From the NCBI GenBank assembly GCA_013239625.1, contig MU053762.1, positions 85,424-149,423 of the forward strand: 64,000 nucleotides of DNA, read 5' to 3'. The notes below the pieces were generated by a model, which worked only from the letters and a program-made list of their open reading frames with translations, was not told the DNA's origin and searched no databases. Positions 3,150-62,450 of this stretch are shown piece after piece; the first letter of the stretch is position 1, and every line of letters begins with the position of its first letter. Position numbers and translations under genes: made by a program. Source of the DNA: Lama guanicoe. Its lineage: Eukaryota.

Positions 3150-6100
3150 TATACATAATAGGGGCTCCAGAAGGGGAAGAAAGAACAAAGGGGATTGAAA
3201 AGGTATTTGAAGAAAGTATGACTGAAACCTTCCCAAACTTAAAGAAGGAATCAGATATCCAAGTTCAGGAGGATCAGAGGGTGCCAAACAGGGAGAACAC
3301 AAACAGACACACACCAAGACATATCCTAATCAAGTTGGCCAGAGTCAAGGATAGAGAAATGATCCTAAATGCCTTCAGGCAAGAGGAAAACAAAGAGAGA
3401 GTTACAATGGAACCCCTTAAGGCTCTCAGCGGATTTCTCTACACAAACACTACAGGCCAGAAGGGAGTGGCAAGATATATTGAAAGTCCTGAATGAAAAA
3501 AAAAATGCAGCCTAGAATACTATATCCAGCAAAGCAATCATTTAGAATAGAAGGAGAGATAAAGATCTTCACAGACAAGCAAAAACTCAAAGAGTTTATC
3601 AACATTAAACCCATGATAAAAAAAAATTGATAAGTCTGCTCTAAATAGAAAAGAAGCAGGATGCTACAAAAATGAGAAACTCATAACCAGAAAGGTGATA
3701 ACCACCATGCTTTACAAATTCAATAAAAACAAAATTGTAAAAGAGGACTTCTAAATCTTTAAGAGTGGGAAAGGGAAGCAAGAAAATATGAAGTATTTTC
3801 TTTCTCTTTTCTTTTAACATTTTTATTGATTTATAATCATTTTACAATGTTGTGTCAAATTCCAGTGNNNNNNNNNNNNNNNNNNNNNNNNNNNNNNNNN
3901 NNNNNNNNNNNNNNNNNNNNNNNNNNNNNNNNNNNNNNNNNNNNNNNNNNNNNNNNNNNNNNNNNNNNNNNNNNNNNNNNNNNNNNNNNNNNNTTATCTA
4001 TTCTTTTGAAATCCCAATCTATCCCTTCCCACCCTCCACCCCCCTGGTAACCACAAGTCTGTATTCTCTGTCTGTTAGTCTATTTCTGTCCTGTATTTAT
4101 GCTTTGTTTTTGTTTGTTTGTTTGTTTTTGTTTTTGTTTTAAGATTCCACAAATGAGCGATCTCATATGGTATTTTCATTTCTCTTTCTGGCTTACTTCA
4201 CTTAGAATGACATTCTCCAGGTGCAAACACGTTGCTGCAAATGGCATTATGTTGTCAGTTTTTATGGATAAGTAGTATTCCATTGTATAAATATACCACA
4301 TCTTCTTTATCCATTCACCTGTTGATGGACATTTAGACTGTTTCCATGCTTTGGCTTTTGTAAATAGTGCTGCTATGAACATTGGGGTGCAGGTGTCATC
4401 CTGAAGTAGATTTCCTTCTGGATACAAGCCCAGGAGTGGGATTCCTTGGTCATATGTTAAGTCTATTCCTAGTCTTTTGAGGAATCTCCACAGTTTTCCA
4501 TAGTGGCTGCATCAAACTGCATTCCCACCAGCAGTGTTGAAGGGTTCCCCTTTCTCCACAGCTTCTCCAACATTTGTCATTCATGGATTTCTGAATGAGG
4601 CCATTCTGATGGTGTGAGGTGATACCTCATTGTAGTTTTGATTTGCATTTCTCTGAGTATTTTCTTTTCTTTCTTTTGTGTAAAAGTTTTTTTAATCTCT
4701 GTAGGATGGGTTTGAGATTATATTACTATCTATTTAGTACACACAGTTACAGTAATAAGTTAATAGACTTACAAAAAAGGGTAACCACAAGTCAAAAACT
4801 TACAAGGGACTCACAAAAACTAAACACAATCCAAGATAATACAAAAGAAAATTGCCAAGCCACAAAAGGAAGAAGAATGGAGCAAAGAGGAAATACCAAA
4901 TCAAATGCAAAAATAAGTTCAAAATACAAATAAACACTGATCTATTATTAATTACAGTAAATTTTAATGAACTAAATGCTCCAGTCAAAAGATGTAGAGT
5001 GGCAGACTGGATAATAAAGCAAGAACTTTCAATATGCTGCATAAAACAGACACATTTTTGGGAGAAGGACACATATAGATTGAGAGTGAAAGGATGGAAC
5101 AGGATATTCCATGCAAATGGAAAAGCCAAAAGAGCAGGTGTAACAGTACTGATTTCAGACAAAATGCACTTTAAAACAAGGGCCATAAAGTTAAATAAGG
5201 ACATTTTATAAAGATTAAATGAGTAATACAAGATGAGGATATTATAATCATCAATATATATGCACCCAAAATAGGAGAACCTAAGTACTTAAAAGAACTA
5301 CTAACAGAGATAAGGGGGATATTGATGGGAATACAATCATTGTCAGAAATTTTAACACCGCATTATCATCACTAGACAGATCTTCCAGACAGAAAATAAA
5401 TAAGGTAACAGAAAAACTAAATGGTACAATAGAAAAATTAGATTTAGTGGATATTTTCAGAGCATTATGCCCCCCAACAATAGGATACAAATTCTTTTCA
5501 AGTGTGCATGAAACATTTTCTAGGATTGATCATGTACTTGGGCACAAAAGAAGCCTCAAGTATTTTAAGATAGAAATTATCTCAGGCATCTTTACTGAAC
5601 ACAATGCCATGAAACTAGAAATCAACTACAGAGAAACAAAGAAGAAAAAAAGGAAAGCATGGAGATTAAACAACATGCTATTAAAAAAATGGGTCAATGA
5701 GGAAATCAAAGTTGAAATTAAAAAATACCTTGAGACAAATGAAAACGAAAACACAACCACACACAACTTATGGGATGCAGCAATGTCAGTGCTAAGAGGG
5801 AAGTTTAGGGTGATGCAGGCCTTCCTCATAAAAGAAGAATAAACAGTCTAATCCACCAGTTAAAAGAACAAGAAAAAGAAGAGCAAAAACACCCAAAAGT
5901 CAGCAAAAGGAAGGAAATAATAAAGATCAGGGAGGAAATAAATAAAATAGAGATTTTAAAAAAGCAGAAAAATATCAATCAAACCAAAAGCTGCTTTTTT
6001 GAAAGAGTAAATAAAATCCACAAACCTCTGGTCAAACTCACAAAGAAAAAATAAAGAGCACAAATAAGCAAAATAGGAAAGGAAAATGGAGAAATTACAA

Positions 6101-9035
6101 AAAATATCATAGAAATACAGAATATCATACAAGAATATAATGAAAAATGTATGGAACCAAAATGGATAACATACAAGAGATGGACAAGTTTCTGGAAACA
6201 TACAGTCTACCAGGACTCAATCAAGAAGAAACTGACCACTTGAACAAAACAATCACTAGAAATGAAATCATATTAGCAATAGAAAACCTCCCTACTAATA
6301 AAATTCCAGGACCGGAAGGCTTCACCAGGGAATTCTCCCACACATACAAAGAACTCATACCAGTCCTTCTCAAACTCTTCCAGAAGACTGAAAAACAGGG
6401 AAAACTCCCAAACTCATTCTATGAAGCCACCATTACCCTGATATCAAAACCACCATTACCCTGATATCAAAACCACAAAAAAAGAGAATTATAGACCAGT
6501 ATCACTAATGAACACAGATGCAAAAATCCTTACCAAAATACTAGCAAATAGAATCCAACAGCACATAAGAAAGATTATACATCATGGTCAAGTGGGGTTC
6601 ATCCCAGGGACATAAGGATGTTTCAACATATGCAAACCAATAAATGTAATACATCACATCAACAAGACAAAGGACAAAAACCACATGATCATCTCAATAG
6701 ATGCAGAAAGATCTTATGATAAAATTCAATACCCATTTATGATAAAAACTCTCACCCAGGTGGGTATAGAGGGAACATATCTCAACATAATAAAAGCTAT
6801 ATATGACAAACCTACAGCCAGCATAGAACTCAATGGTGAAAAACACAAAAGCTTCCCACTAAAATCTGGGACAAGACAATGTTGTCCAATATCACCATTC
6901 CTATTCAATATAGTCTTGGAAGTCCTGCCCACAGCAATCAGGCAAGAGAGAGAAGTAAAAGGGATCCAAATTGGAAAATAAGACATAAAAGTGTCATTAT
7001 ATGCCGATGATACATTACTATATATAGAAAACTCTAAAAGGTCCACAAAAAAATTACTAGATGTGTTTAAAGAATTCAGCAAGGTAGCAGGTGACAAGGT
7101 TAACTTTCAAAAATCAGTTGCATTTCTTTACACTAATGATGAATCAACAGAAAAAGAAACTAAAGAAACAATCCCCTTTAAAATAGCACCCAAAGTAATA
7201 AAATACACTGTAATAAATATAACCAAGGAGGTGAAAGAATTATACACAGAAAACTATAAACCATTGATGAAGGAAATTAAAGAAGACTCTTAAATATGGA
7301 AAGATATCCCATGTTCTTTGATTGGAAGAATCAATATTGTGAAAATGGTCACACTGCCCAAGGCAATCTACAGATTTAATGCAATCCCTATCAAATTACC
7401 CAGAACATACTTCACAGAACTAGAACAAAGAATAATAAAATTTATATGGAACCATCAAAGACCTAGAATTGCCAAAGCATTACTGAAGAGAAAGGAAGAG
7501 CCTGGAGGAATAACTCTCCTAGACTTCACACAATACTACAGAGCTGCAGTCATCAAGACATCATGGTATTGGTACAAGAACAGACATGTAGATCAATGAA
7601 ACAGAATAGAGAGCCCAGAAATGAACTCAGAAACAGTTGGTCAACTCATCCTGGACAAAGGAGGCAAGAATATACAATGGAAAAAAGACAGCCTCTTCAG
7701 CAAGTGGTGTTGGGAAAACTGGACAGCAACATGTGAAGAAATGAAGCTAGAACGCTCCCTTACACTGTACACAAAAATCAACCCAAAATGGATCAAAGAC
7801 TTAAATATAAGACAAGATAAAATAAACCTCCTAGAAGAAAATATAGGCAAAACATTATCTGACATGCATATCAAAAATGCTCTCTTAGAAGAGTCATCTC
7901 AAGCAATAGAAATAAAATCAAGAATAAACAAATGGGACCTTATGAAACTTACAAGCTTTTGCACAGCAAAGGAAACCATAAGTAAAACAAAAAGACCTAC
8001 AGAATGGGAGAAAATTTTTGCAAAGGAAACCAACAAAGGCTTGATCTCCAGAATATATAAGCAGCTCATATGACTTAATAAGAAACAATCAAACAACACA
8101 ATCCAAAAATGGGCAAAAGACCTCAACAAGCAATTGTCCCAGGAAGACATAGAAATGATCAATAGGAACAAGAAAAAATACTCAATATCATTAATTATCA
8201 GAGAAATGCAAATCAAAACTACAATGAGGTATCACCTCACGCTAGTCAGAATGGCCATCATTCAAAAATCCACAAATGCCAAATGATGGAAAGGCTGTGG
8301 AGAAAGGGGAGCCCTCCTACACTGCTGGTGGGAATGCAGTTTGGTGCAGCCACTGTGGAAAACAGTATGGAGGTTCCTCAAAAGAGTAGGAATAGACTTA
8401 CCGTATGACCAAGTAATCCCGCTCCTGGACATATATCCAGAAAGAACTCTACTTCAAAACGATACCTGAACCCCAATGTTCATAGCAGCACTATTTACAA
8501 TAGTGAAGACATGGAAACAGCCTAAATATCCATCAACAGGTGACTGGATAAAGAAGATGTGGTATATTTATACAATGGGATACTACTCAGCCATAAAAAC
8601 CGACAACGTAATGCCTTTTGCAGCAACGTGTTTGCATCTGGAGAATGTCATTCTAAGTGAAGTAAGCCAGCAAGAGAAAGAAAAATACCACATGAAATCA
8701 CTTATATGTGGAATCTAAAAAACAACAACAACAACAACAAAAATGAAGCATAAATACAAAAGAGAAATATATTCATAGACATAGAGTACAAACTTGAGGT
8801 AGCCAGGGGGACGGGGGTAGGAAGGGACAAAGTGGGATTTCAAAATGTAGAATAGATAAATAGTATTGTGCTGTGCAGCACAGGGAAATATATATAGGAT
8901 CTTGTGGTGCTCACAGCAAAAGATAATATGACAGTAAATATATGTATGTTCTGTTATAACTGAAAAATTGTTCTTTACACTGGAATTTGACACAACATTG
9001 TAAAATGACTATAACTCAATAAAAAAAGTTAAAAA
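3150..9035 (+). mobile_element. 5'-truncated LINE-1 (partial ORF1, disrupted ORF2, 3'UTR)
   Basis: ORF1 piece (ETFPNLKKESDIQVQE), endonuclease (VNFNELNAPVKR), RT (SLYADD at ~7000), C-terminus and aataaa/A tail; many stops. Confidence 0.97.
3806..4655 (-). mobile_element. Antisense L1 3' fragment nested in the inter-ORF region of the host L1
   Basis: Minus-strand QDDTCTPMFIAALFTKAK; flanked by near-direct repeats agtattttcttt at ~3792 and ~4656; contains gap 3868-3993. Confidence 0.92.
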
Positions 9036-21060: not shown

Positions 21061-24000
21061 AGGAAGGAGGTCAAGACAGCGGAGTAGTAGGATGCACGTA
21101 GCTCACCCTCTCCCAAAGATGCACCAAGACTCACATCTATGGACCCTCTCCACCAACCAGAGCACCTAAGGAACTCCAAAAGAACATTGTCCTCTTCAAA
21201 AGACAAAGACACCAAAAATCTGGTAGGAAAAAGGCAAAAAAAATAAAAGGTAGGTGGAAAGGCAAAGCAGAGCGGGACGGTTCCCGCAGGGAGGGAGTGG
21301 CAAAGGACAGCTGGCGCTCGCTCGCTGGGTCTCCCCTCTCCAATGGAGAGGACAGCAGGACGGAGGGGGAGCCTCAGAGGCTCGGATCTGTAAGGAGCAG
21401 CCCTTGACCAACAGAACTAAGTGAAACGGGCACAGATGGTCCCTGCGACACCCAGGCCGAGACCCGAGCCAGAAGCTAGTGGCTGGGACAGGCCACCAGG
21501 GCCAGGTGGAGGACGGAGACGGCTGCGCTGAGGCAGCCCTGGGGGACTGCAGGGGGCTGCGCGCTGTGGCTGTGGGTGCACACGGCAGAACAATCTAGGC
21601 CTCCATGAAACAGCATGGCTAATGTGCCCTGCGGGGAAGGATGCACACCCCCATCTCTGAAAACCCAGGGAAGGTTTTCAGCGGGGAGAGGCGGGGCTGA
21701 AGCACAGACGCCATATCCTCCGGCGCTTGGCACTCGGGTTGGGACGGGGGCGGGGGCGAAACCTGGGTCCGCGCCTGGGGGCTTGGCAGCCTCGGAGTCC
21801 AGACAGTGACTTGTTTGCAGCCCGAGGCAGATAGGATCCTTCCGCCCTGGTTCCTGGCAAAGTTCGCGCTGCCAGAAGAAACAAGGAGCTGAGTTTGGAC
21901 ACGGAGCAGGAACGGAGGTGTTTCTCAGCCTTCCTGGGGCCCGCCTGCGGAGTGCCGACCCGGGGCAGAGCGCACGGCAGGCCGGAGCTGCAGAGCAACC
22001 GGCGCCGGGAGATGGCGGGTGGCCCCCGCCTTTCCAGCAGGATCTCTGTGCTGGGAGGGGGCGCGATCTGCGTGCCGACAGGCACTGGGAGCAGCACAGA
22101 CGAGGGCGCCAACAAGAGGTCCTCGTGAAACAACAAACTGAGCCCTCGAAACAGGGCGAATACAGAAAGACTTCTCATTCAGAGCGCACATTCTCCAGGA
22201 GAACACCCACTCCCCCTTTTGAGTTTTTTGATCTTTTTTTGCCTGCTATATTCTCTGTTAACTTTTTGATTTTTGCTTTTTAAACAGCTGTATCCTCTCA
22301 GTTTTGGTCCCTTTTGAATTTTGTTTTTAAAATGGAATGGTTGTTATTTAGAAAGGTACACGTCGTGTCATTTTTCTCTCTCTTGGTTTTGATCACCTGT
22401 TGTTGATTGTACACAGGTTTCAAATGTTTTTGTCCTCTTTTATCCTATTTTGGAGTTTTTGGGAGACGTCACAACCCGATTGCTGTTCTGCTTCAATTTA
22501 CTCTTCAGTGGTTTACTGTACGCTATTTTCAGGCCTTTATTTTCCTCCTCTTTTTCAGAATTCTCTCTTCATCATATTTTTTTTTGTCTGTTCTATTTTT
22601 TATTACCTTTTTCATTTCTAAATTCTGGAAGGTTGTGTATGCTTCTAGTTGTGGTTCCTTTTTGAATTTTTCTTTCTAGACAATTGTGTGTGCTTCTAGT
22701 TTTGATTCCTTTTGGGTATCTCTCTTAAAGTAGTTATATTATTGTTTTTTAAAGAGAATCCACTTGATTGCATTTTCACTTCTTTTGGGTTTGATCTCCT
22801 GCTGTTGTTTGTAAATGGATTTTAAGTGTCATTTTTAGATCTTTTTTCGTTTTAGCTTTCTTGAGGGTTTTTAAAAAGATCTCAATTCGAATGCTACTCT
22901 AATTCAAATTGCTCTTCTATAATTGATACACAGTTTTCAAACCTTTACTTCTCCCTTCTTTTAAAGTTCTCTCTCTCCTTTTTTTTTTCTTTTACTTTTT
23001 AAGTTTTATTCCTACATAGGCATTAGATAGATAAATAAATAAACTCCTTTAGGGACCAAAATAAATTACTGATACTCCATAAGCCACAGCACCAGAGATA
23101 TACGAGCAAGATGAAGAAGCAGAGAAACCATTCCCAATTAAAAGAACAAGAGAAATCCCCTGAAAGAATGACCAATGAAATAGACATTGAGAGCCTAATA
23201 TATCAAGATTTCAAAAAAGGAGTGATCAAATTGCTGAAGGAACTAAAAGAGATAGTGTATAGATATAAAATATGTCAAAAATGAAATTGGAGTTATAAAG
23301 AGCCAAGTAGAATGGGTAAACTCATTGAATGAGATGAGGAATTATCTAAAAGCTGTGCAAAGCAGAGTAGAAAATGCAGAGGAACTAATTAGTGACCTAT
23401 AAGACAGGACAACAGGAAACACACAATCAGAAGAGCCACAAGATAAACAAATAAAAATAGCATAAGAGACCTATGGGTTAATATAAAGCATGCCAGTTTT
23501 CGCATGATAGAGGTCCCAGAAGGGGAAGAAAGATCAAAAGGGATTGAAAAGGTTTTTGAAGAAATCATGACTGAAAACTTCCCAAACTTAAAGAAGGAAT
23601 CAGATATCCAAGTACAGGAAGCTCAGAGGGTTCCAAACAGGAAGAACACAAATACACCCACACTAAGACATATCATAATCAAGATGGCTGGATACAAGGA
23701 TAAGGAAATGACTCTAAAGGCAGCAAGAGAAAAGCAAAGAGTAAGTTACAAGGGAAACCCCATAAGGCTCTCAGCTGATTTCTCTACACAAACACTAGAA
23801 GCCAGAAGGGAGTGGTAAGATATATTCAAACTCCTGAATGAAAAAAAAGATGCAGCATAGGATACTTTATACAGCAAGGCTATCTCCTGGGATAGAAGGA
23901 GAGCAAAAGAATTCCACAGATAAGAAAAATCTGCAGGAGTTTAGCAACACTAAACACATGCTAAAAGAAATATTGAAAATTGTACTCTAAATAGAAAAGC

Positions 24001-27000
24001 AGCAGGATGCTACAGAGATGAGAAACTCACAACTGGAAAGGTGATAACTCATGAATTACAAATAAAATAAACACAAAATTATAGAAGACATACAAATCAT
24101 TGAGAATGGCAGAGGGAGGCAGGGAAATATAGAATTATTTTTTCTCTTTTTTTAAATTTTTTGTTCTCGGTATGATGGGTTTGAGGTAATGTTATTATCA
24201 GTTTAATAGAAAACAGTTATAGTAAGGGGCTAATATGAAAAAGGGCAACCACAAGCCAAAAACTTACAAGGGAGTCATAAAAATTAAATAAAATCCATGA
24301 TAACACAAAGGAAAGTTACCAAACCACAAAAGGAAGAAGAAAAGGAACAAAGAGGAAATACCAATTCAACTGCAAAGATAAGTTCAAAATGGCAATAAGC
24401 ACACACGTATCATTAATTTCTGTAAATGTTAATGGACTAAATGATCCAGTCAAAAGACATAGAGTGCCAGACTGGGTAATAAAGCAAGAACCTTCAATAT
24501 GCTGCATAAAAGAGACCCACTTTAGGGAGAAGGACACATATAGTTTGAGAGTGAAAGGATGGAAAAGGATATTCCATGCAAATGGATAAGCCAAAAAAGC
24601 AGGTGTTGCAGTACTGATTTCAGACAAAATAAACTTTAAAACAAAGGCCATAAAGATAAAGAAGGACATTTTATAATGATTAAAGGAGTGATACAAGATG
24701 AGGATATTACTTTCATTAATATATATGCACCCTATATAGGAGCACCTAAATATAAAGAACAATTGCTAACAGAGATACAGGTGATATTGATGGGAATACA
24801 ATCATAGTTGGAGATTTTAACACTGCATTAACATCACTAGACCAGTCTCTCAGACAGAAAATAAAGAAGGTAAGAGAGAAATAAAACAATACAATAGAAA
24901 AATTAGATTTGGTGGATATTTTCAGAGCATTATATCCCCGAAAATAGGATTTATGTTCTTTTCAAGTGCACATGGAAAATTTTCCAGGATTGATCATGTA
25001 CTTGGGCACAAAAGAAACCTCAACAATTTTAAGAAGATAGAAATTATCTCATGCATCTTTACTGACCACAATGCTATGAAACTAGAAATCAACAACAGAG
25101 AAACAAAGGAGAAAAAAAAAGCATGGAGATTAAACAACATGCTATTAAAAAAAAGGGTCAATGAGGAAATCAAAGCTGAAATTAAAAAATACCTTGAGAC
25201 AAATGACAATGAAACCACAACCACTCAAAATCTGTGGGACACAGCTAAGGCAGTGTTAAGAGGGAAGTTTATAGCAATACAGGCCTTCCTCAGAACACAA
25301 GAACCAACTCAAATAAACAATTTAACCCACCAGCTGAATTAACTAGAAAAAGAAGACCAAAAAAACCCAAAAGTCAGCAGAAGGAAGGAAATAATAAAGA
25401 TTAAGGAGGAAAAAAAGAAAATAGAGATTAAAAAAAATGAAGAAAAAACAAACAAACCAAAGCCTCTTTTTTTAGAAAAAGTAAATAAAATCGACAAACC
25501 TCTGGCCAAACTCACAAAGAAGAAAAAAGAGAGAGGACAAATTGGCAAAATAAGAAAGGAAAATGGAGAAATTACAACTAATACAATAGAAATACAGAAT
25601 ATCATACAAGAATATTATGAAAAATTCTATGGAACCAAACTGAATAACCTAGAGGAGATGGACAAGTTTCTGGAAACATACTGTCCACCAAGACTGAATC
25701 AAGAAGAAACTGACCACTTGCACAAACCAATCACTAGAAATGAAATAGAAATAGCAATTAAAGCATTCCTACAAATAAAAGTCCAGGACCGGATGGCTTC
25801 ACCGGGGAATTCTACCAAACATACATAGAAGAACTCATACCAGTCCTTCTCAAACTCTTCCAGACGATTGAAAAGGAGGGAATACTCCCAAACTCATTCT
25901 ATGAAGCCACCATCACCCTGATACCAAAACCAGGCAAAGACACTACAAAAAAACAGGATTATAGGCTGATATCACTGATGAACATAGATGCCAAAATCCT
26001 CACCAAAATATTAACAAAGAGAATCCAACAACATATAAAAAGGATTATACATCATGACAAAGTGGGATTCATCCAAGGCACACAAGGGTGGTTCAACATA
26101 TGCAAATCCATCAATGTAATACATCACATCAACAAAATAAAGGACAAAAACCACATGATCATCTCAAGAGATGCAGAAAAAGCTTTTGATAAAATTCAAC
26201 ACCCATTTATGATAAAAACTCTCACTCAAATGGGTATAGAGGGAACATATGTCAACATAATAAAAGCTATATATGACAAACCTACAGCCAGCATAGTACT
26301 CAATGGTGAAAAACACAAAAGCTTCCAACTAAAATCTGGGACAAGACAAGAATGCTCACTATCACCACTCATATTCAATATCATCTTGGAAGTCCTGGCC
26401 ACAACAATCAGACAAGAGTGAGAAATAAAAGGGATTCAAATTGGAAAACAAGAGGTAAAAGTGTCACTCTATGCCAATGACATGTTACTATATATAGAAA
26501 ACCCTAAAAGGTCCACACAAAAGCTACAAGAGCTGATCAAAGAATTCAGCAAGGTAGCAGGCTGCAAGATTAACGTTCAAAAATCAGTTGCATTTCTTTA
26601 CACTAACGATGAATCAACAGAAAAATAAACTAAAGAAACAATCCCCTTTAAAATTGCACCCAAAGTAATAAAATATCTGGGAATAAATCTAACCAAGGAG
26701 GTGAAAGTATTACACACAGAAAACTATAAACCATTGATGAAGGAAATTAAAGAAGACTTTTAAAAATGGAAAGATATCCCATGCTGTTGGATCGGAAGAA
26801 TCAATAATGTGAAAATGGTCACACTGTCCAAGGCAATCTACAGATTTAATGCAATCCCTATCCAATTACCCAGGACATATTTCACAGAACTAGAACAAAG
26901 CATAATAAAATTTATATGGAACCATCAAAGACCTAGAATTGCCAAAGCATTACTAAAGAGAAAGGAGAGGCTGAAGGAATAACTCTCCCAGACCTCAGAT

Positions 27001-28570
27001 AATACTACAGAGCTACAGTCATCAAGACAGCATGGTATTGGTACAAAAACAGACATATAGACCAATGGAGCAGAATAGAGAGCCCAGAAATGAACTCACA
27101 AACATTTGGTCAACTCATCTTCAACAAAGGAGGCAATAATATACAATGGAATAAAGACAGTCTCTTCAGCAAGTGGTGTTGGGAAAACTAGACAGGAGCA
27201 AGTAAAACAATGAAACTAGAACACTCCCTTATGCCATGCACAAAAATAAACTCAAAATGGATCAAAGACCTAAACATCAGACAAAATACAATAAAACTCC
27301 TAGAGAAAATATAGGCAAAACATTATCTAACATATATCTCAAATCTTTCCTAGAAGAAATAAATGCAAGAATAAACAAATTAGACCTAGTGAAACTTATA
27401 TAAGCTTCTGCACAGCAAAGGAAACCATAAGTAAAACAAAAAAAACAACCTACGGAATGGGAGAAAATTTTTGCAAGTGATACCGACAAAGGCATGATCT
27501 CCAGAATATATAAGCAGCTAATGTGACTTAATAAGAAACAACCAAACAACAGAATACATAGATGGGCAAAAAAACTGAAGAAACAATTCTCTAAGGAAGA
27601 CATAGAAATGATCAATAGGCACATAAAAAATGTTCAATATCACTAATAATCAGAGAAATGCAAATCAAAACTACAATGAGGTATCACCTCACACCAGTCA
27701 GATTGGCCATCATTGAAAAATCCACAAATGACAAATGCTGGAGGGGCTGTGGAGAAAGGGTAACCCTCTTACACTGCAGGTGGGAATGTAGTTTGGTGCA
27801 GCCACTATGGAAAACAGTATGGAGATTCTTCAAAACACTAGGAGTAGACATACTGTATGACCCAGGAATTCTGCTCCTGGTCTTATATCCAGAAGGAACC
27901 CTACTTCAGGATGACACCTGCATCCAATATTCATAGCAGCACAATTTACAATAGCCAAGACAGGGAAACAGCCTAAATGTCCATCAGCGGATGACTGGAT
28001 AAAGAAGATGTGGTATATTTATGCAATGGAATACTATTCTGCCATAAAAACTGACAACATAATGCCATTTGCAGCAACATGGATGCTCCTGAAGAATGTC
28101 ATTCTAAGTGAAGTAAGCCAGAAAGAGAAAGAAAAATACCATATGAGATTGCTCATATGTGGAATCTAAAACACAAAAATAAAAAGACAAAGCATAAATA
28201 CAAAATAGATATAGACTCATAGACATAGAATGCATACTTGTTGTTGCCAAGAGGGTGGAGGGTGGGAAGGGATAGACGGGACTCTATAATTGTATATCAG
28301 GTAAACAAGATTATTCTGTAAAGCACAGGGAAATATACACAAGATCTTATGGTAGCTAACAGAGAAAAAAATGTAACAATGAATACATATATGTTCATGT
28401 ATAACTGAAAAACTGTGCTGAACATTGGAATTTGACACAACATTGTACAATGTTTATAAATCAATAAAAAATTTTAAAAAAGAGTGAATGATCACATCAT
28501 ACTGTATACCAGAAACTTAAAACTGATTATATGACATTAAAAATAATGTTAAAAATGTGAAAAAATTAAT
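21061..28570 (+). mobile_element. Full-length LINE-1 (~7.5 kb), inactivated, nested in an older L1 3'UTR
   Basis: CpG-rich 5'UTR from 21061, T-rich tract, ORF1 remnant from ~23111 (..ENFPNLKKESDIQVQEAQRVP..), ORF2 from 24389 (MAISTHVSLISVNVNGLN..), RT motif altered to YAND at ~26470, many stops and frameshifts, 3'UTR and A-rich tail. Confidence 0.97.
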
Positions 28571-34859: not shown

Positions 34860-35700
34860 CTTGTCAGCCACTGAGGCTGACCCGAGTACACTGAGCCCTC
34901 CTCCCAGGGACAGGCTGACATGTCATGCGTCCTGCAAACCTGGGGTAACAGAGGCCATCCCCAGATCTGGCCCTGGGGAAGATGGGAGCAAGTCCACCTG
35001 CTCCCCCTGGGGCAGCACCCATCCCCACAGCCCCCGCCTCCAGACCGCACCACGCCTGACTCTCAGGAACACACTGACGTGAAAACAAGTGATCCATGAA
35101 CCTGGGGTAGCAGCGGGGAGATGGGCAGCGACCTGGCAAGCTTGTCGATTTGCCCCCATCTCCCCCAAGGCCTGTCCTGGGCTCGGCCTCTGCTGCTCCA
35201 GGCATGGTCCCCAGGTCAGCCTGCTCCCAGGAGGAGGGCGTGGTGTGCTCGAAGGCACTGGCGGGTTATGGGGTTTGCCCATGGGAGCCTATGGATTTGC
35301 TTCAAATTCCCCAGTGCATGGCCTGGGCTTGGCCTCTGCTGCCCCAGTTTCGTGGAACTCAGGTTACAGGTCAGCCTGCTCCTGGAAGGCGGGTGCTGTG
35401 CTGTCAGGGAATGGCGGCGGCTGCGATGGCGGGATTGGGGCTGCCCTGTGAGAGCGCGGGGGTTGCGACCATTTCCCGCTGTTGCTGCAGCCATCCCAGC
35501 ACACTGATCGCACTGCGCCCACCTCCCAGGAGCAGCCTGACCTGTAACCTGAGTCCCACGAATCTAGGGCTTTAGAGGCCGCCCCCAAGGTCAGGCCACG
35601 GGGAAGATGGGAGCAAACCCAGGGACTCTCGTGGGACAGCCACCATTCCATCCAAGGCCCCGCGACCGCACCGCACCCGCCTCCCAGGAGCAGCCCATCG
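34860..35700. repeat. Diverged GC-rich ~150-160-bp unit array with inverted central units
   Basis: cctcccaggagcag at 35522 and 35680; reverse-oriented ggtcagcctgctcc at 35214 and 35369; ggggaagatgggagcaa at ~34975 and ~35620. Confidence 0.8.
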
Positions 35701-36300
35701 TCTGAGGGCCAGTCGGAGATACTCCGGAGCCGTGCGGCGCCCTCCCAACTCCCGGGGCTGTACTTGCTCTCCTAAACCCGGGTACAAGCGGCGGCAAAAA
35801 CGCGGGGTTCAGAAACTACTAATAGCGGGGTTACCACGAACCACAGCAGCTGCTGGGACCCGCCTCAGTGTCGTAATGGGACGCGCGGCCTAGACCTCAC
35901 CTCCTGTGCTCCTCCCCAGCTGCACAGCCCAGGCGTCACCCGCCGGCTCCCCGGGCAGCACGCCCACACCAGCGCCCCCTTGACTGCCCGGCAGCAGCAG
36001 CCGAGCCGAGGGCAAGCCGTGGCCAAGACCCCAGGCTGTGTTCCTCTTCCAGGAGCTGGTCCAGGAGCTACCAGCTCCCGCCAGCTTCCACGCGTTCTGG
36101 GCGGGTTCCGGGGTCCGCGCGTCTGTCCGTCTGCGCGTGCGCGCCCCTCCTCCTCCCGCCTGCAGCGCAAACTGCTCGCGTGGGTCTCCTGCTTTACCGG
36201 ACCTGGCCACTGGGGCCGGAAGGAGCCAGGTGGGGCCCCTCCTGCTCGTCCCGCCGGGTCTCCATCCCCAGAGCCCTCACCCCGCCACAGACTGGGTCCT
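35700..36300 (-). promoter_or_regulatory. CpG island with NRF1-like motif and a minus-strand splice donor (first-exon-like)
   Basis: Dense CpGs; tgcgcgtgcgcg at ~36132 resembles the NRF1 site; GC boxes; minus-strand GAG|gtgagg donor at 35901/35900. Confidence 0.6.
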
Positions 36301-37440
36301 GGCACTGAACTAGAACCAACCCCACTTCCCCTGCTCAACTTCCCCTCCCTGTTACTACCCTCCCACCCCTGGCCAGGCCCAGTCTCCCACTAGACCTTGA
36401 AGACAGGGTTCCTTCTCCTCGCACCGAGGTCCCTGCCCTGACACTCCATCCTGCTAGTTCCTAACCTATGGCCCCTACACCCACAAGCTTACCCCTCATG
36501 CCTCAGCACAGGACCCCCAACATCCTGAAATTGTCCCCCTCACCTCTCAGCCAGGTCAGTTCCACTCTGAGCGGGCCCCACACCACTTGTACCCCCTCAC
36601 AATGGGATCCCCTTCACTCTGAGTGCACCCATACCCTGAGCTCACTCCCTTACCCCTCACCCTGTGGTTGGGGTGGGGAAATCCGGGCTCCAGTAATGAT
36701 GACTACTGCCACCAGTGGGGGATCCAGCCTAGTGTGCACCTTCATAGTTAATGTCTGAGGCTACAGGGCGAGGCAGGCTGGGCTGAAGGAGGTTCCAATT
36801 CCCGCCCTGGCACCCTGATCCCCGCACCCTGTGCCTCAACTGATCTGATGGGTCAGGGTGATCCCAGGCTGCCAGACACTGGCCTGTGGGCCTTGGGTGG
36901 TTGATGGTCTTGATGGTGATCTGGACTCCTAGGGCGGAGGCACTGGGCACGTGGACCTTTGGGGTGGGGGAGTTCAGAGGGTGCATTGAGCCCAGGGGTA
37001 GACAGTGGTGGGCTGTGTGCATGGGGCTGTGTGCGTGGCCTGGGCTTAGCCCAGGTGGGTGCAGGGACCTTGTTCATTCACACCAGGCCAGAGGGAAGAG
37101 GGACAGGAGTTTTAAAACATCAAAGTTAGGAAGCCACGGCTGGAGAGCAAAGTAGGAAGGTGCACTGGCCAGGCCACCATGCATCCCGCCGCGACGCTGG
37201 CCCCTTGCATCAGGGGAGGCTGGCAGTTGAGTGGCCAATGAGACATCCCCTACTGTGGTATAGTTTACAGGCAATTGAAGGGATTTTGACAAGTAATTTT
37301 AATCCAATAATTGTCACTTTCTCTGCGGGAGATCAGGTCCAAAGTCATGGTGAATCTGGCAGGGATCCTGCCTGAACTCGAGCCTGGGACAGTGGAGGAC
37401 CCTCCCAGGAATCATCCTCTTAGCTCTCACCAAAAGGCAC

Positions 37441-37860
37441 TGTAATATAGAAGAACAAGCCTAACTCCATATTGGATCTGTTCCTTTTCTTTAACCTTCT
37501 GCCCTGTTTTCTAGGCTTAGCCTTGCTAGCTCTGCACCTTTTGTAAAACAATGTTGCCTTTAGCCTGAAATAAACAGGAGAGCCTATTCTCAAAACTCTG
37601 ACCTTTAAGGATATTAACACTTTTGCACTCCTATAAAGATAACAAGTTGCAGAAGAGAAAAAATTTGTTTTGTTGCAGGTTTTACAGGAACACCATGATC
37701 TGACCCATGTGGACAGCTGCAAAGGATTCCAAGAACAAAGAAATTCTACACCAAGAAGTTTGCAACAACCAACTACAGCCCCTCCCCTTTTTAGTAGAAA
37801 GGAGCCTGAAGTCTGACATGGGAAAGATGGTTCTCCAAGATATTAGTCTGCCATTATCTT
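37441..37860 (+). mobile_element. ERV LTR fragment (5' part, TG start)
   Basis: Starts tgtaatatagaag; LTR-like composition; a second copy lies inverted immediately downstream. Confidence 0.7.
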
Positions 37861-37864
37861 GATC

Positions 37865-38149
37865 TGCAGCTGTCTACGTAGACCAGGTCATAGTGTCTCT
37901 GTAAAACCTCTAACAAAACAAAAGTTTTTCCTATTCTGCAACTTGTTGTCTTTATATAAGTGCAAAAGTGTTAATATCCTTAAAGATCAGAGCCTTGAAA
38001 TTTGGCTCTCCTGTATATTTCAGGCTAAAGGCAACATTGTTTTACAAAAGGTGCAGAGCTAGTAAGACTAAGCCTAGAAAAGAGGGCACAGGTTTAAAGC
38101 AAAAAGAACAGATCTTCTATGGAGTCAGATTTTTTTCTTTTCTATTATA
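37865..38149 (-). mobile_element. ERV LTR fragment, inverted copy of 37441-37720
   Basis: Reverse complement aligns to the left arm; the ORF track gives GSPVYFRLKATLFYKRCRASK on opposite strands of the two arms. Confidence 0.75.
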
Positions 38150-39165
38150 GTATATTCTGTTTTTGTTTTAAGTTTATAAGAATAAAGTTTAGCCTTTTCC
38201 CATTTTAAATTGTGCAATTTTAAGGAGCAGTTAGTGCATTCACAATGCTGTGAGACCAACATCACTGGTTTCAGACTATTTCCTTCCTCAAGGTAAAAGC
38301 TTGCATCCAAATCACACCCCACATCCTACCTCCCCCAGCCCGTGATGAGCCCTAATCCCCTTACTCTCTCTATGTCTTTACCTATCCTGGAGGTTCCCTA
38401 CCAAAGAAATCATATAAAAGGTGGCTTTTTTATTTTTTGTCCGCCCATATATCTTAAATAGGGAAGGGTGAATTTTTTGTTTGTTTTCATGTGAATTAGC
38501 ATTTTTGTATTTTGAGAGGAAAATCCAGATGGATTAAAGATGAGACGTACCAAATGAAGCCCTCTTAATAACTCTGTGCATAATCTCGGGGTAGGCACTG
38601 CTGTTCTAAGTGTGAAACCAGAGCCAGAAGGGAGATGCTTAGCTCTTCTTGTAGCAAAATAAAGCCAAACAAAAACAGAAAACAAAGGCCAAGAAAGACA
38701 GCTGGAAAGACAAATCACAGCCTGGAAAAAGCGTTCCTCATGACCCAAGGTCGGAGTAAAGCTTCACATCCCTGTGGTCCAAAAACCTCTTGAAGCCCAG
38801 TGTTCTGAAAAGAAATAAAACACACACAGTCAGTTCCAACGACAGGCAGTGCAGGTGGCCAGTGTGTGCTAGAGATGTTAGACCTCTCAGGTGAGGACAC
38901 AGGCAGACGGACAGACTGCAGAGACAGCATTGGCCACCATCACACTGGCAGGTCTTTAGTCCGGTGACAACTAGCCCTGGTGGCAACGTGAGCAGGCAGA
39001 GGCCCCAGGATGTCCCCTGGAGGGAAGAGCAAATGGACGCTCCTCTGTGGCAGAACAAGGTGCAGGACACATCAAAGTGACACAGTTGCATCCCTTCCCT
39101 AGCAGTGCTGATCCTTAGAGGAGATCCCACCAAAGTTTTTGCACAATTTTCAAAGATAATTTTTC
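38150..39165 (+). repeat. Diverged ~1-kb direct repeat, copy A
   Basis: Collinear with 41805-42820 (aactctgtgcataatctc, cagaagggagatgcttagctct, gacctctcaggtgag, cccctggagggaagag shared). Confidence 0.9.
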
Positions 39166-40300: not shown

Positions 40301-41843
40301 ATGATCTGCTGCATCCCAATATCCCGAGGCCGCAGCCTCCGGAAAGCCCGCAGCGAGGGGCTGTACCAATGCGGCCGACGCTGGGTCAGGTCTCACTCAA
40401 GGCGCCTCTGGTCTTTTGGCCAGAGGAACCCAAAGGTAATACAGGGAGGCCCAGGGCAGGCCCGCCCAGGCCGGGCCACCACTCAGATCCCACCCAGGTA
40501 GCTCCACGGCCCCTTCCTGACTGGTGGAATTGGAGCAGTCATGTTGGGGATGGGTTTCTGCCTCAAGCAAAAGCAGGTCAGAGGCCTGGGGGGCCAGTCA
40601 CATCCACAGCCCAGGTCAAAGCTGGCTGGCTGGGATGTGGAGAGCCGGGGAAGGGTCCTGCTGCCCGAGGTGGAGCCCATGCTCTCTGGGTAAATCTTTT
40701 CCTTCCCGGGTGTCTGAGCTGAACAAGGTCCCAGTCTGATCTGGCAGCAGAGGTTCGAGTGGACAGAATCAGGAGTGCTCCTGGCCGGGCAGGGCTCTGA
40801 GACTTCTGGGCCAGGTCAGCTGATGATTACTGTCATTGCAGAGCCAGATACCACATATTGAATAGAAGCTGATGAATAAGAACACCAACGACCCCTCCCC
40901 AAGTGAAGGGCTGTTGTGTCACTCTTCTGAGGGCCAGCGCAGGCTCCAGGTGGGTCTGGATATGGAGGGGTCCCCACCACCATGGCCGAGAAATGAATGG
41001 GGCAGGCCTCTGACCCAGACATCACCCAGGGCTCTCCCAGGGACCTGCCCGGGGATGACAGGTAGCTCAGCACACCCGGCTCTGACCTGGAGCACCGTGC
41101 CCACCTCGCTGCAAGTCAGGTGGAGGACCAGGATCCCCTGAAGAAAAGCCCGAAGGTCAGAAAGGCAGGGCTGTGCGTGTGTGTAGGTGAGGGAGGGGCA
41201 ATGGCTGGGCCACACAGGGAGGTGTCCCCAGAGGCTACTGTTGGGACCAGAGCAAAGAATGGCCTCAGATCACCTGTCTGAAAATATTCAGTCACAGAAC
41301 ACATCCTGTGGGCACTTTCTGGGTGGGAGCTGTCTGGAAAGCTCAGGGAAGTTTTCTGCCCTTGAAGAGGCACATGGAAAGGGAGGCAGGTGGGTAAATT
41401 TTTCCTCTCTCACAGCATGAGCTCGTCCACAAGACTTAGAACTCTCTCCACATCCAATAGTTACAGAGGAGGCAGGGGCAGGGGAAGATGTCAGAGACCA
41501 AAAAAAGGACGATCTGGATCCAGCAGGAGACCTCGAGCTCCCTCCTGCCACTCCTGCAGCTCCTCCTGAAACTGCTTCTGCACCTGGGTGGCTGGGCAAC
41601 GGAGAACCAGTTCAGGCATCACCACCACCTGGGGCAGAGCCCCCTCTGCACCCACCCACAGCTTCTTCTCCAAAATGTTCTCCAAAATCCCACCATCAGT
41701 CCCCTCCCCCTCCCCCTGTCAAACTTGACGTCCCTTCCGCTGGAGATGTTGTTGTTTGGTTTTCTTTAGTTTCCTTTGTTTGTTTCACATCATTTATGGC
41801 GTCCTTTATTTTTCTTTTTAGAGTTTCATGTAATAAAATATAG
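40301..41843 (+). pseudogene. Disrupted 4-exon gene: RalGDS-like family N-terminus, Pro-rich region, hydrophobic C-terminal tail, no RasGEF domain
   Basis: Phase-0 GT-AG exons 40301-40435 (MICCIPISRGRSLRKARSEG..RLWSFGQRNPK), 40842-40949 (SQIPHIE*KLMN..GQRRLQ; cf. RALGDS SSTQEIGEELIN..GQRWLG), 41120-41155 (VEDQDPLKKSPK) and 41416-41843 (Pro-rich after a 2-bp CA insertion, ending VVVWFSLVSFVCFTSFMASFIFLFRVSCNKI*); AATAAA at 41832. Confidence 0.7.
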
Positions 41844-42820
41844 ACATTTCCCCTTTTAAATTGTGCAATTCAGGAGCATTAGGGGCATTCACAATGTTGT
41901 GCGACCATCACTACCATCTAGTTTCACACTATTTCTTTTCTCAAAGTGAAACCATGGATCCAGAGAGCGCACTCCCCTCCCTCCTCACCCAGCCCCTGAC
42001 AACCCCAAGTCCTCTTTCTCTCTACGTGTCTTTACATCTCCTGGGTGTTCCTTGTCAATGAAACTTTAAAAAAGTTGTTTTTTTGTCCCTGCCCACATGT
42101 TTTAAGCTGGGGCTGGTGATTTTTTGTTTGTTTGTTTTCACTTGAAACAGCGTTTTTATTATTTTAAGGGGATATCCAGGGGGATTAAAGATGTGACGCA
42201 CAAAATGAAGCCCTTTTAGTAACTCTGTGCATAATCTCAGGGTCAACACTGCTGTTCCCCCTGTGACACTACAGCCAGAAGACAGAAGGGAGATGCTTAG
42301 CTCTTTCTGTGGCAAAAACAAAACCAAACAAATAAAAAAATTAGCAAAAGCCAAGAAAAACTGCTTGAAAGACAAACTGGAAAAAGCATTCCTCATAACT
42401 CAAGGTTGGCGAAGGGTTTCCCATCCCTGTAGTCCAAAAACCTTTCAAAACCCAGTGTTCTAAACAGAAACAGAACAGACATGGGCAGTTCCAATGAGAG
42501 GCAATGCAGGTGGCCAGTGTGTGTTAGAGATGATTGACCTCTCAGGTGAGAACACAGGCAGATGGAAACACTGCAGAGACAGCACCAGTCACTATCACAC
42601 TGGCGGGTCTTTAGTCAGGTGACAACCAGCCCTGGTGACAATGTAAGCAGGCAGAGGTTCCAGCAGATCCCCTGGAGGGAAGAGTGAAGGGACGCTCCTC
42701 TTCAGGAGAACAGGGTGCAGGATGCATCAAAGGGCCACAGATGCATCTCTTCCCCAGAAGTTCTGATCCTTACAGTTAATCCCACTAAAATCCTTACACA
42801 CCTATTCAAAGATGCCTTTT
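41805..42820 (+). repeat. Diverged ~1-kb direct repeat, copy B
   Basis: Same anchors as copy A at an offset of ~3650 bp. Confidence 0.9.
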
Positions 42821-43873
42821 CAAGGGTGTTCATCACAGCACTGGGTGAAACAGTCCAAATTAAAGCAACACTAATGTTGATGGAAAGGGGATGGTATCCA
42901 TTCGTTCTGGTTCATGTGGATGAATGAATGCTGTGCAGTTGGAAAAGTGGGTGCCTGGTCTCAACCCAATGTCAAGGGAGGCCTCAGGGTGGAAGTATGC
43001 AGACCCACTGTCTGCACCCAGGGTCCCATCTGCAAGACCACATATGTGTGAAATCAACATAGATGTAAATTGATCTGATTGCCAGTGTGTGAGACACAGA
43101 CATGGAAAGAGACATACTGAGAGACACAGAGACTGAGACATAAGAACCAAATCATTCATGACAGTCACCTCTGTGGGTGAGAATTACAAATCTCTTCTCT
43201 TTTAGGCAATATTTCAATTTTTTGTAATGTGTCTGTATTACTCTACTAATTCTAAGAGGATTAAAGTCCTATGTTATTGTAACCCATTCATTACTCATCC
43301 ATGGAGTAATTGTACACTAATCCTATTTTTAAAAGAATTTAAGTCCTTCTCAGGACTCAATTCCATGTCAGCTCAGTGGCAGCAGAGGTTCTCCAGGAGG
43401 TCGTGTCTCTTCTGAATCACCATCCAATAGGGTTGAGGAAGAAGTACCAGACTTGGGCACTGAAGACTACAGTAGAATAGAGATACTGTGGAGAGAAATT
43501 AAGACCAACATTCACAGAGAATAATCCCAAATTCATGGAGAAGAAGGCTTCATTCTACTAAGATGACAATAGTCCACGAATAGATCTAAGGATTCAAAGA
43601 ATGCATACCCAAATAGCAGGTGCTGTTCTGAAGGAACTGACAATCAATCTAAAATTCACGTGGAAAACCCTGGTGCTCAGAATACATGAGTGTATCTTGA
43701 AAAAGAAGAACAAAGTTCGAGGAATGGAAAGTCAGATGGAACCCACGGTTAATACAAAAGCACTTTAAGCTGAAGAAACTTGAGATCCAATAGATGTAGA
43801 AGAAAATCTGTCATGGAAGCCAATTCTCTCCTCTCCCTTTGCCCTATTAAGTTAGGTTGATAAAAAGACTTTA

Positions 43874-59610: not shown

Positions 59611-60076
59611 GATAAGCTCTAAATATGTTTATTCAAAGAAAATCTTCAACTCTTCCCTCTTACAAAACTTAAAATGGGAAGCTTGAGCAGGATCAAATTA
59701 TACTGGATGGGCAGTTACATATCTTCTCCAGCACATGGCCCATGCTACACACACATCGTGTTTTCCTACAGGTAAGAACGGCCCTGTCTGAACAGGGAGC
59801 GAGTCCTGCTGGGACAAGGCCTCTTTAGCAGTGGCCTCCTTGTCAGCACTCCATCTCACCAGGAGGCCAGAGTTTTCAGAGGTGAGGGGACATAGAGCTC
59901 ATGCACTTCAAATCAATTTCCTGAGAAAAACTATGGAAAGACCAAATTCACCTGCAGTGCGGGAAACATGAGCAGGGCCCCTAAGCAGACCAACAAGCCC
60001 AAAGTAAGATGGCCCGATGTTCACATCAGAACCAGAACAACGACCACTGGCCCCAGTTAAATGTCCACCAACTCAC

Positions 60077-60326
60077 CTGCAATGAACTGTTCGTACTCAA
60101 TGTCAGGGATGTTTCTGTTGAGACTTGGGCGATCAAAGAAGTCGGACCAGAGAATTCGGACCTGGTTGATGTCAGGGCTCTGCCAGCGGTAGAGGTGGCC
60201 CCAAGAGGGTAGCACCAGTACTGACTCCTCCATCTTCAGCAGGGTCTTCAAGAGGAAGGCAACGTGGATGCAGATGTTCCTACGAGCCTGAAGCCCTCTG
60301 GAGGGTTGATGTCACACAGAAGGTAC
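60077..60326 (-). pseudogene. POFUT2: POFUT2 pseudo-exon 2 (250 bp, frameshifted)
   Basis: cttcctgccag|GTACCTTCTG...ATTGCAG|gtgagt; [12 protein letters not shown](frameshift)[69 protein letters not shown], matching POFUT2 [43 protein letters not shown]. Confidence 0.95.
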
Positions 60327-60587
60327 CTGGCAGGAAGCAAAGGAGAGCGGGTCTTCAGGGCCAGGCCTCTGCACAGGAATCCCGGCTTAGAACAGATTGA
60401 ACAGGAATCCCTGCACAGCCCATGGCCTAGACTCCAGACACATTCAGCAGCTTCTGGTTTGTAAAGTGGAGGCACTGCCCACCCATCTCCATGTGGCCAA
60501 TTACTTCGAGTCCGGGAGAAGTTGCGGAAGACATCTTGGCATCCGTCTAACACCACCGCTAAGCACTAGCACCTGAGCACCCGTTCT

Positions 60588-61679: not shown

Positions 61680-62450
61680 GTTCATGTCCACTGGCCCCGC
61701 CAATGGCGCGGACGTACGTTTACCGTCTGTGGGACTCAGCCCCAGACAGGATGTCGGCCGCCGACTGACCAGGCCAGAACTAGTCGCTGGGCCGAGCAAG
61801 CCGCCATCCCCAGCAGCAAGCACTGCCACGGTCCCGGGCAGCTGCACACTTCNNNNNNNNNNNNNNNNNNNNNNNNNNNNNNNNNNNNNNNNNNNNNNNN
61901 NNNNNNNNNNNNNNNNNNNNNNNNNNNCGCTTGCGTCTCCTCCCGAGTCTAGATGTGCGAGGGCAGAACTTGCGGAGCCAATGGGAGCCAGGGCGCGGTC
62001 AGGACGGGGGTGGGGGCAGGCTTATGGGGCAGCTGGGCGGTTCCGGGGCTGGCGGGGCCGCGCGGATGTCCTCAGCTGCAGGTGGCGCCGGCCGGAGGCT
62101 GGGGCGGTCCTGCCACCAGTGGGCGGGGCAGCGGGGCAGCGGCACCCCCACCTGTCCGTGTGCGGGGCTCAGCCTGGGCTCCGTGGCCTTCGCTTGCACC
62201 GGACGTGGACCCAGGCTGCCGGTGGACAAGATAGAGGACTGAGCCCAGGCACGCACGGCTGTCCAGGTAGGGCACATGAAGTGCAGATCCGCCAGGCCCG
62301 CTGCCGGCCTTGAATTCGCGCTGCTGGGCAGTTTCCAAGAAGACAAGGTCTGTCCCAAGAGGGGAGGTAGGTCAGGGGTGCCAGATGCCTGGTTGGGTGC
62401 GGTCTCACAGGAGAGCCACGGTGAGAGGGCGCAGAGCGGCCCCTGTGTTG
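61680..62450. promoter_or_regulatory. CpG island / promoter of the POFUT2-derived block
   Basis: High GC and CpG density around POFUT2 exon 1; CCAAT near 61700 and 61978, GC boxes (gggcgg); interrupted by gap 61853-61927. Confidence 0.75.
61724..61829 (-). pseudogene. POFUT2: POFUT2 pseudo-exon 1 (coding part)
   Basis: Ends [19 protein letters not shown]|gtaaac (human [20 protein letters not shown]); Glu codon is now TAG, the apparent start is GTG and the signal peptide carries deletions. Confidence 0.92.

What the first reader, a model, noticed from the sequence alone, without database searches (positions are those of the whole stretch)
40301..41843. RalGDS-derived 4-exon gene that replaced the GEF domain with a Pro-rich region and a hydrophobic tail
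Seen: four phase-0 GT-AG exons followed by AATAAA. Repairing one TAG (exon 2) and one 2-bp insertion (41428) gives a ~230-aa protein with a Cys/Arg-rich N-terminus (MICCIPISRG), an acidic/Pro-rich middle and a 24-residue hydrophobic C-terminus. Known from recall: exon 2 resembles RALGDS SSTQEIGEELIN..GQRWLG, and the M-x-CC..SRG..RLW-x-F start resembles multicopy 'RalGDS-like' genes of laurasiatherians. Inference: a lineage-specific, GEF-less, possibly membrane-anchored offshoot family; this copy is dead but intact paralogues may exist.
Basis: partly seen in the sequence, partly recalled or inferred. Interest (0 to 1): 0.75.

Follow-up and report, generated by a model that had tools for sequence, protein, structure and literature searches.

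The report
Dead copy of GEF-less camelid family
This is a disabled copy of a multiplied camelid gene that descends from a Ras-pathway exchange-factor gene and has lost the catalytic part; intact alpaca and bat relatives are predicted to encode a floppy, membrane-anchored protein that likely acts as an adaptor, so the copy is ordinary but the family is unstudied.

Summary
Real gene remnant, wrong exon model. The exon 1|2 join, the TAG, the AATAAA and the lack of any RasGEF exon in 64 kb hold. But RNA contigs splice into 41461, not 41416, so the '2-bp insertion' is intronic. All 20 alpaca RefSeq relatives read through 'intron 2', making a three-exon gene. Against them this copy has five lesions (two stops, three 1-bp deletions), one shifting the tail's frame. 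Eight of the 20 end in a hydrophobic tail; AlphaFold gives disorder plus one C-terminal helix. Bat proteins share the same internal deletion and, in 11 of 36, a P-x-K-P-P-R-type motif; primate CDRT15L2 has the same plan through a different deletion. The last exon lies in the published alpaca satellite VpaSat05-8550, and read depth hints at very many copies. Likely mechanism of intact copies (inferred, about 40%): a cytosolic adaptor held by an N-terminal Cys-Cys/basic patch and a tail anchor. dN/dS and tissue could not be tested. This scan found the family three times before on other DNA, satellite link included; my paper searches found no description.

The parts
40301..40435 (+). Exon 1, 45 codons, open: Cys-Cys start, 12 K/R against 1 D/E
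   Evidence: 64-71% identical to alpaca relatives; E 4e-10 to a profile of 23 RalGDS-like/RGL4-like proteins
40842..41155 (+).
   Evidence: (records 4, 9); acceptor confirmed by one RNA contig
40863..40865 (+). TAG stop, shared by most close copies and by a spliced RNA contig
   Evidence: no variant row in the uncut table 3 (10% threshold, 4 runs)
40950..40951 (+). Old exon-2 donor; still used in RNA of close copies but joined to 41461, out of frame for the Pro-rich/tail reading
   Evidence: loose ends behind 40949 in X15 and X18 match 41461 onward (11 of 11 and 28 of 30 letters by eye)
40995..41035 (+). Decayed site of the family's P-x-K-P-P-R motif, followed by a 1-bp deletion at about 41032-35
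   Evidence: an extra base behind 41035 in 11 contigs
41063..41137 (+). Remnant of the end of the RasGEF_N (REM) exon, starting with a TAG at 41063-65
   Evidence: score 55 against P0143, shuffles max 40, 0 of 2000; T>C at 41063 in all RNA depth
41136..41139 (+). 1-bp deletion just before donor 41156
   Evidence: 6 of 6 distinct readable junction inserts are one base longer than the window (table 5c, 12 of 18 rows shown, one row not interpretable)
41461..41837 (+). Last exon: acidic, Pro/Ala-rich stalk (shorter than in the alpaca relatives), hydrophobic tail, AATAAA 41832-37
41744..41818 (+). Tail segment, 60% T, hydrophobic in two of three frames; frameshift at about 41761-64 against P0028/P0029
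41570..41925 (-). Collinear match to the first ~400 nt of alpaca satellite VpaSat05-8550
   Evidence: exact shared 21-mer found in the supplement; collinearity by eye
38181..39165 (+). 77% copy of the gene's 3' flank (41832-42821), starting at its own AATAAA, 3651 nt upstream: trace of a tandem unit

Best explanation
The locus is a disabled copy of an amplified three-exon camelid gene derived from a RalGDS-like/RGL4-type gene by loss of the GEF domain, and its intact paralogues likely encode a disordered membrane-bound adaptor. Shown: the dead state, the family, the GEF loss, the exon use. Inferred: deletions removed most REM exons and all RasGEF exons; the old exon-2 donor is read through, which brings in a P-x-K-P-P-R motif; the last exon runs into T-rich sequence that gives a single C-terminal helix. 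Predicted working (about 40%): the Cys-Cys plus basic N-terminus is S-acylated and binds the cytosolic membrane face, the tail inserts after translation as a tail anchor, and the cytosolic middle presents an SH3-domain ligand. Tandem amplification (the unit is part of a macrosatellite) gives birth and death of copies; this one and most close copies stop in exon 2.
For: Five lesions against P0028/P0029 at about 62% identity. RNA junctions. 20 alpaca proteins in 7 clusters on contigs of 7 different lengths; no Pfam hit in those scanned (P0003, P0004, P0029). Only exon 1 (E 4e-10) and a weak REM-end hit (E 0.75) in six frames of 64 kb. KD19 >= 1.8 within 15 residues of the C-end: 8 of 20 alpaca, 9 of 36 bat, 1 of 3 anteater; anywhere: 13 of 21 CDRT15-named primate proteins, 0 of 22 GEF-bearing. 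AlphaFold of P0029: one helix, 296-320, pLDDT 82-96, rest mostly under 55. Motif in 20 of 20 alpaca, 11 of 36 bat, 0 of 46 others. Satellite match. S-acylation of N-terminal Cys-Cys/basic ends (GAP-43) and SH3 ligand consensus are recalled, not tested.
Against: 12 of 20 alpaca models lack the tail. The tail's frame differs between copies and T-rich DNA gives such stretches freely (140 in this window). The proteins are computed gene models; no peptide evidence, no dN/dS. The stop at 40863 is shared by most close copies, so most of the amplification is non-coding. The alpaca set is 82-100% alike in residues 1-150, so 20 of 20 is nearly one observation. The motif is absent from 25 of 36 bat proteins. 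Three long RNA contigs leave the window after 41530 with unknown continuation.
Confidence: 0.7

Rival explanations
1. The camelid family is a satellite passenger: transcribed, with open frames left by recent amplification, but no working protein; the tail is a by-product of T-rich DNA.
For: Stop shared by most close copies and very high DNA depth; 12 of 20 models tail-less and frame switching in the tail; by eye the satellite consensus has stops in the tail frame; 140 chance hydrophobic stretches.
Against: The exon-2 read-through region aligns end to end between alpaca and bats (6 of 7 bat proteins with 0-12 of 1000 shuffles as high; best score 104 against max 69); indels between window and intact relatives outside the five lesions are in frame; tails sit at the same place in bats.
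Confidence: 0.3
2. The working part is only the N-terminal Cys-Cys/basic peptide or the RNA; even stop-bearing copies (52 residues) could make a small membrane-binding peptide or regulatory RNA that competes with GEF-bearing RGL4-like proteins.
For: Exon 1 is open here and is the one part kept in all groups; spliced RNA bearing the stop exists.
Against: A stop this far before the last junction would be expected to trigger nonsense-mediated decay (recalled); stop-bearing contigs are of low depth; exon 1 here departs from the family consensus at several conserved places.
Confidence: 0.12
3. Intact family members are 5' parts of longer GEF-bearing genes whose further exons the models missed.
For: Contigs of 3100, 3053 and 1390 nt leave the window after 41530; several alpaca models have other C-ends.
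Against: No RasGEF exon in 64 kb; an RNA contig runs on to 41844, past the AATAAA site (record 27); no camelid GEF-bearing protein among the 120 of 148 hits listed; the REM exons are deleted.
Confidence: 0.07
4. The breaks are assembly errors and this copy is intact.
For: No run holds more than 34% of the stretch's words; the window has 488 N.
Against: The TAG at 40863 is the common allele in two DNA runs; T at 41063 is about 40-45% of depth; the extra base at 41035 is in only about 1-2% of DNA depth.
Confidence: 0.03

Closest known systems
Alpaca RefSeq 'uncharacterized protein' set, UniRef label 'Skin secretory protein xP2-like' (XP_072816817.1, XP_072796879.1, XP_072821441.1, XP_072807712.1)
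   Same: Collinear over the whole length, about 59-62% identity; same first and last junctions.
   Different: This copy has five lesions, a shorter stalk, and keeps short in-frame stretches that the alpaca set lacks.
Bat GEF-less proteins (Molossus, Myotis, Eptesicus, Cnephaeus, Saccopteryx; e.g. A0A7J8EF98, A0A7J8EFF9)
   Same: Exon 1, exon-2 read-through, P-x-K-P-P-R-type motif, REM-exon end, Pro/Ala/Glu stalk, often a hydrophobic end.
   Different: Several bat tails have two hydrophobic segments; tail homology only suggestive (13-28 of 2000 for P0029, not for P0028) and the joint clade is unsupported (19/87).
Primate CDRT15 / CDRT15L2
   Same: Homologous exon 1, no GEF, acidic Pro-rich middle, hydrophobic segment in 13 of 21; multi-copy with frameshifted cDNAs (PMC10403009, Discussion read).
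   Different: Reads through intron 1 and lacks exon 2; middle no better than shuffles (500 of 1000); hydrophobic segment 34-77 residues from the C-end and unrelated (645 of 2000).
RGL4 / RalGDS-like GEFs of horse, Old World monkeys, chinchilla
   Same: Exon 1, REM-exon end, start of the intron-2 read-through in a macaque model (12 of 1000), position of the Pro-rich linker.
   Different: They carry PF00617 or PF00618 and no hydrophobic tail (0 of 22).
Alpaca satellite VpaSat05-8550 (PMC13751797)
   Same: Its first ~400 nt are the reverse complement of a paralogue of the last exon and 3' flank.
   Different: Both primers are absent from the window at up to 3 mismatches; the window shows a 3.65-kb partial duplication, not an 8.55-kb array; the paper's main text does not name RalGDS or RGL4. 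Works like the gene-bearing macrosatellites RS447/USP17 and D4Z4/DUX4 (recalled).

Membership tests
RGL4/RalGDS-like GEFs | Homologous Cys-Cys/basic first exon | tested here: met
RGL4/RalGDS-like GEFs | RasGEF (CDC25, PF00617) domain | tested here: not met
   none in six frames of 64 kb; none in P0003, P0004, P0029
RGL4/RalGDS-like GEFs | REM (PF00618) domain | tested here: not met
   only a 24-codon end remains
   RALGDS was not fetched; exon 2 was not significant against 4 RalGDS-like/RGL4-like proteins or the anteater protein, and 9 of 2000 against a bat protein
Camelid 'xP2-like' family | Collinear three-exon structure with exon-2 read-through | tested here: met
Camelid 'xP2-like' family | Open reading frame | tested here: not met
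   two stops, three frameshifts
CDRT15/CDRT15L2 | Exon 1 homology and no GEF | tested here: met
CDRT15/CDRT15L2 | Same internal structure and same membrane segment | tested here: not met
Bat GEF-less family | Shared deletion architecture | tested here: met
   6 of 7 bat proteins beat all but 0-12 of 1000 shuffles
Bat GEF-less family | One clade with camelids; homologous tail | tested here: inconclusive
   support 19/87; tail tests mixed
Tail-anchored proteins | Single hydrophobic helix at the C-end, no earlier one | tested here: met
   predicted for 8 of 20 alpaca proteins
Tail-anchored proteins | Post-translational insertion, cytosolic N-terminus | not testable with these tools
   needs cell assays
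VpaSat05-8550 | Sequence shared with the monomer | tested here: met
   first ~400 of 8550 nt only
VpaSat05-8550 | Tandem 8.55-kb array with primer sites | tested here: not met

The most novel reading that the evidence does not exclude
RGL4-type GEF genes have repeatedly shed the catalytic domain and gained a membrane anchor: once in a common ancestor of bats and camelids (exon-2 read-through creating an SH3 ligand), and separately in primates (CDRT15L2) and anteaters. The result is an unrecognised class of doubly anchored adaptor or decoy proteins. In camelids the gene rides a macrosatellite with very many mostly dead copies. This would give human CDRT15L2 an origin and a testable function.
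Probability: 0.3. Interest if true: 0.68.

Novelty: new variant of a known kind. Interest (0 to 1): 0.38.

Why it matters
The locus itself is a pseudogene. The family matters modestly: it links an unannotated alpaca gene set, bat multicopy genes and human CDRT15L2 to one parent, suggests repeated loss of a catalytic domain with gain of a membrane anchor, and shows that a published camelid satellite carries a transcribed gene. Function remains inferred.

Tried and rejected
No own genome is held, so no copy count and no dN/dS. Word-index search with exon 1 alone found nothing; ESM Atlas gave no usable hit; Pfam gave nothing real for the exons; PDB search with a donkey RalGDS-like protein gave 0; our-findings search by sequence gave 0. 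P0001, P0009 and P0015 look like repeat-driven matches and were left out of the counts; unnamed Logan/ENA open frames and horse GEF-less models were not in the groups. I tested whether the tail derives from the first RasGEF helix: not supported (105-781 of 2000 shuffles as high). The tree on about 80 residues cannot join bats and camelids. Filing it as a CDRT15 orthologue was rejected. Tissue: two RNA runs are labelled 'reproductive system metagenome' but hold 10-13% of the words, are contigs, cover introns too and no silent control stretch was laid, so no tissue or level is claimed. Depth is a hint, not a copy number. No complex prediction was run. Paper searches (listings seen, 40 of 63 for CDRT15 and 20 of 624) showed no description of the family.

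Full report
Observation. No whole genome is held, so I tested the model with public RNA and DNA contigs and with protein relatives.

RNA. Four RNA runs laid at 80% gave 130-311 contigs each, mostly 80-95% alike and covering introns as well, the sign of a many-copy family. All four show joints that resolve to donor 41156 and acceptor 41461; none of the 15 joints shown (of 33) goes to 41416. The six distinct readable junction inserts are each one base longer than the window, so the real lesion is a 1-bp deletion near 41138, and 41428 lies in the intron. Two spliced contigs keep 40950-41138. At 88% one contig joins exon 1 to 40842 and three join 40949 directly to 41461; no RNA joint 40949-41120 was seen, though 24 of 48 loose ends were not shown and diverged copies fall below the threshold. 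The TAG at 40863 has no variant row in any of the four runs, so it is the common state of close copies.

Relatives. An HMMER search with exon 1 gave 21 hits, among them alpaca RefSeq models at 64%. Follow-up gave 20 alpaca proteins in 7 clusters, on contigs of 7 different lengths. A frameshift-aware alignment gives about 62% identity to P0028 and P0029 and five lesions: TAG 40863, -1 near 41032, TAG 41063, -1 near 41139, -1 near 41761-64. The locus is dead.

Origin. The exon-1 profile found 148 proteins, 120 listed: 22 RasGEF-bearing horse RalGDS-like and monkey RGL4-like proteins, many bat proteins, anteater proteins and primate CDRT15/CDRT15L2. A profile of 23 GEF- or REM-bearing relatives finds only exon 1 (E 4e-10) and a weak hit near 41060-41147 in the 64 kb. 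That stretch matches the end of the REM exon of chinchilla P0143 (0 of 2000 shuffles), though it was weak or nil against three other relatives (52, 309 and 1081 of 2000). Exon 2 was not significantly like GEF-bearing relatives, and RALGDS itself was not fetched.

Breadth. The alpaca middle region aligns end to end with 6 of 7 bat proteins tested (0-12 of 1000 shuffles; one at 131), but not with horse, CDRT15L2 or anteater. A P-[PQ]-[KE]-P-[PL]-R motif is in 20 of 20 alpaca and 11 of 36 bat proteins and in none of 46 others. This points to one origin for bats and camelids, but the tree gives only 19/87 and tail homology is mixed; two read-throughs of the same parental intron could also look alike. 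CDRT15L2 reads through intron 1 and has an unrelated hydrophobic segment, so it has the same plan but is not the same gene.

Membrane anchor. Tails within 15 residues of the end: 8 of 20 alpaca, 9 of 36 bat, 1 of 3 anteater; no segment of that strength in 22 GEF-bearing proteins. AlphaFold gives P0029 one confident helix, 296-320, and otherwise disorder. Against: 12 of 20 alpaca models lack it, the DNA is 60% T and hydrophobic in two frames, and the window has 140 chance stretches of that strength.

Amplification. Summed DNA depth over most of 40820-41140 reaches about 25,000-240,000 in X1 and 6,000-72,000 in X2, against 17-59 for the lowest long contigs; the tool warns this is no copy number, so I take it only as a hint of very many copies. 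In PMC13751797 (abstract, Methods, first part of Results, passages and the one readable supplement seen) the first 400 nt of VpaSat05-8550 match the last exon and 3' flank on the minus strand: an exact 21-mer, collinear by eye. The cell is cut at 400 of 8550 nt and the figure supplement could not be read, which may bear on this. Its primers are not in the window; the paper reports PCR products only in South American camelids and a probe signal at all centromeres that it calls possibly non-specific, and its main text names neither RalGDS nor RGL4. In the window, a 77% copy of the 3' flank lies 3651 nt upstream.

Mechanism. Intact copies most likely make a cytosolic disordered adaptor, held by an S-acylated Cys-Cys/basic N-terminus (11-12 K/R in exon 1; GAP-43 analogy recalled) and a tail anchor, presenting an SH3-type ligand (consensus recalled). 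I put this at about 40%, a non-coding passenger at 30%, an N-terminal peptide or RNA role at about 12%. The dead-copy and family assignment is about 90%.

Literature and scan. Eight paper searches (listings only unless stated) showed no description of the family. PMC10403009 (Discussion and passages read) gives CDRT15 three exons, frameshifted cDNAs and no known function. PMC13477028 (passages) lists rat Ralgdsl11 and Cdrt15l2 42 kb apart, so the kinship may already be implicit in gene naming. This scan reported the family three times before, twice with the satellite link; I saw those two after finding the link myself.

Verdict: an ordinary pseudogene of an unstudied, amplified, GEF-less offshoot; new variant of a known kind; interest 0.38.

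Noticed in passing
window 60045-60330 (-): Frameshifted exon of an O-fucosyltransferase gene (PF10250, E 7e-9); POFUT2 exon 2 by recall. Looks like a decayed partial duplicate.
   Followed up: partly
window 35927-35939, CpG-rich 35000-36400: A 13-mer from RNA loose ends lying before 41037 (X17, X18) occurs once here (0 in 100 shuffles): possible alternative first exon spliced to the AG at 41039-40 in paralogues.
   Followed up: partly
window 37440-38150: Two inverted arms of about 187 nt, 88% complementary, 245 nt apart, standing where the upstream unit's gene end would be; LTR-like by eye.
   Followed up: no
window 40843-40929: In RNA contigs of all four runs this exon part is under 80% alike while the flanks on both sides are about 84% alike: short indels or fast evolution.
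   Followed up: partly
records 5, 11, 25: RNA-library contigs of 3100, 3053 and 1390 nt keep the last intron and leave the window after 41530; their continuation is unknown.
   Followed up: no
P0002, P0047 (Molossus nigricans): Models made of tandem repeats of exon 1 plus exon 2 (five units in P0002): a further kind of amplification or an annotation artefact.
   Followed up: no
window 35324-35587 and 61850-62400: Inverted repeat of 101 nt inside the first CpG-rich stretch; a second CpG-rich stretch beside an N gap upstream of the fucosyltransferase piece.
   Followed up: no
window 4100-9000 and 23500-28500: Two long L1-like elements about 19.5 kb apart, 85-88% alike.
   Followed up: no
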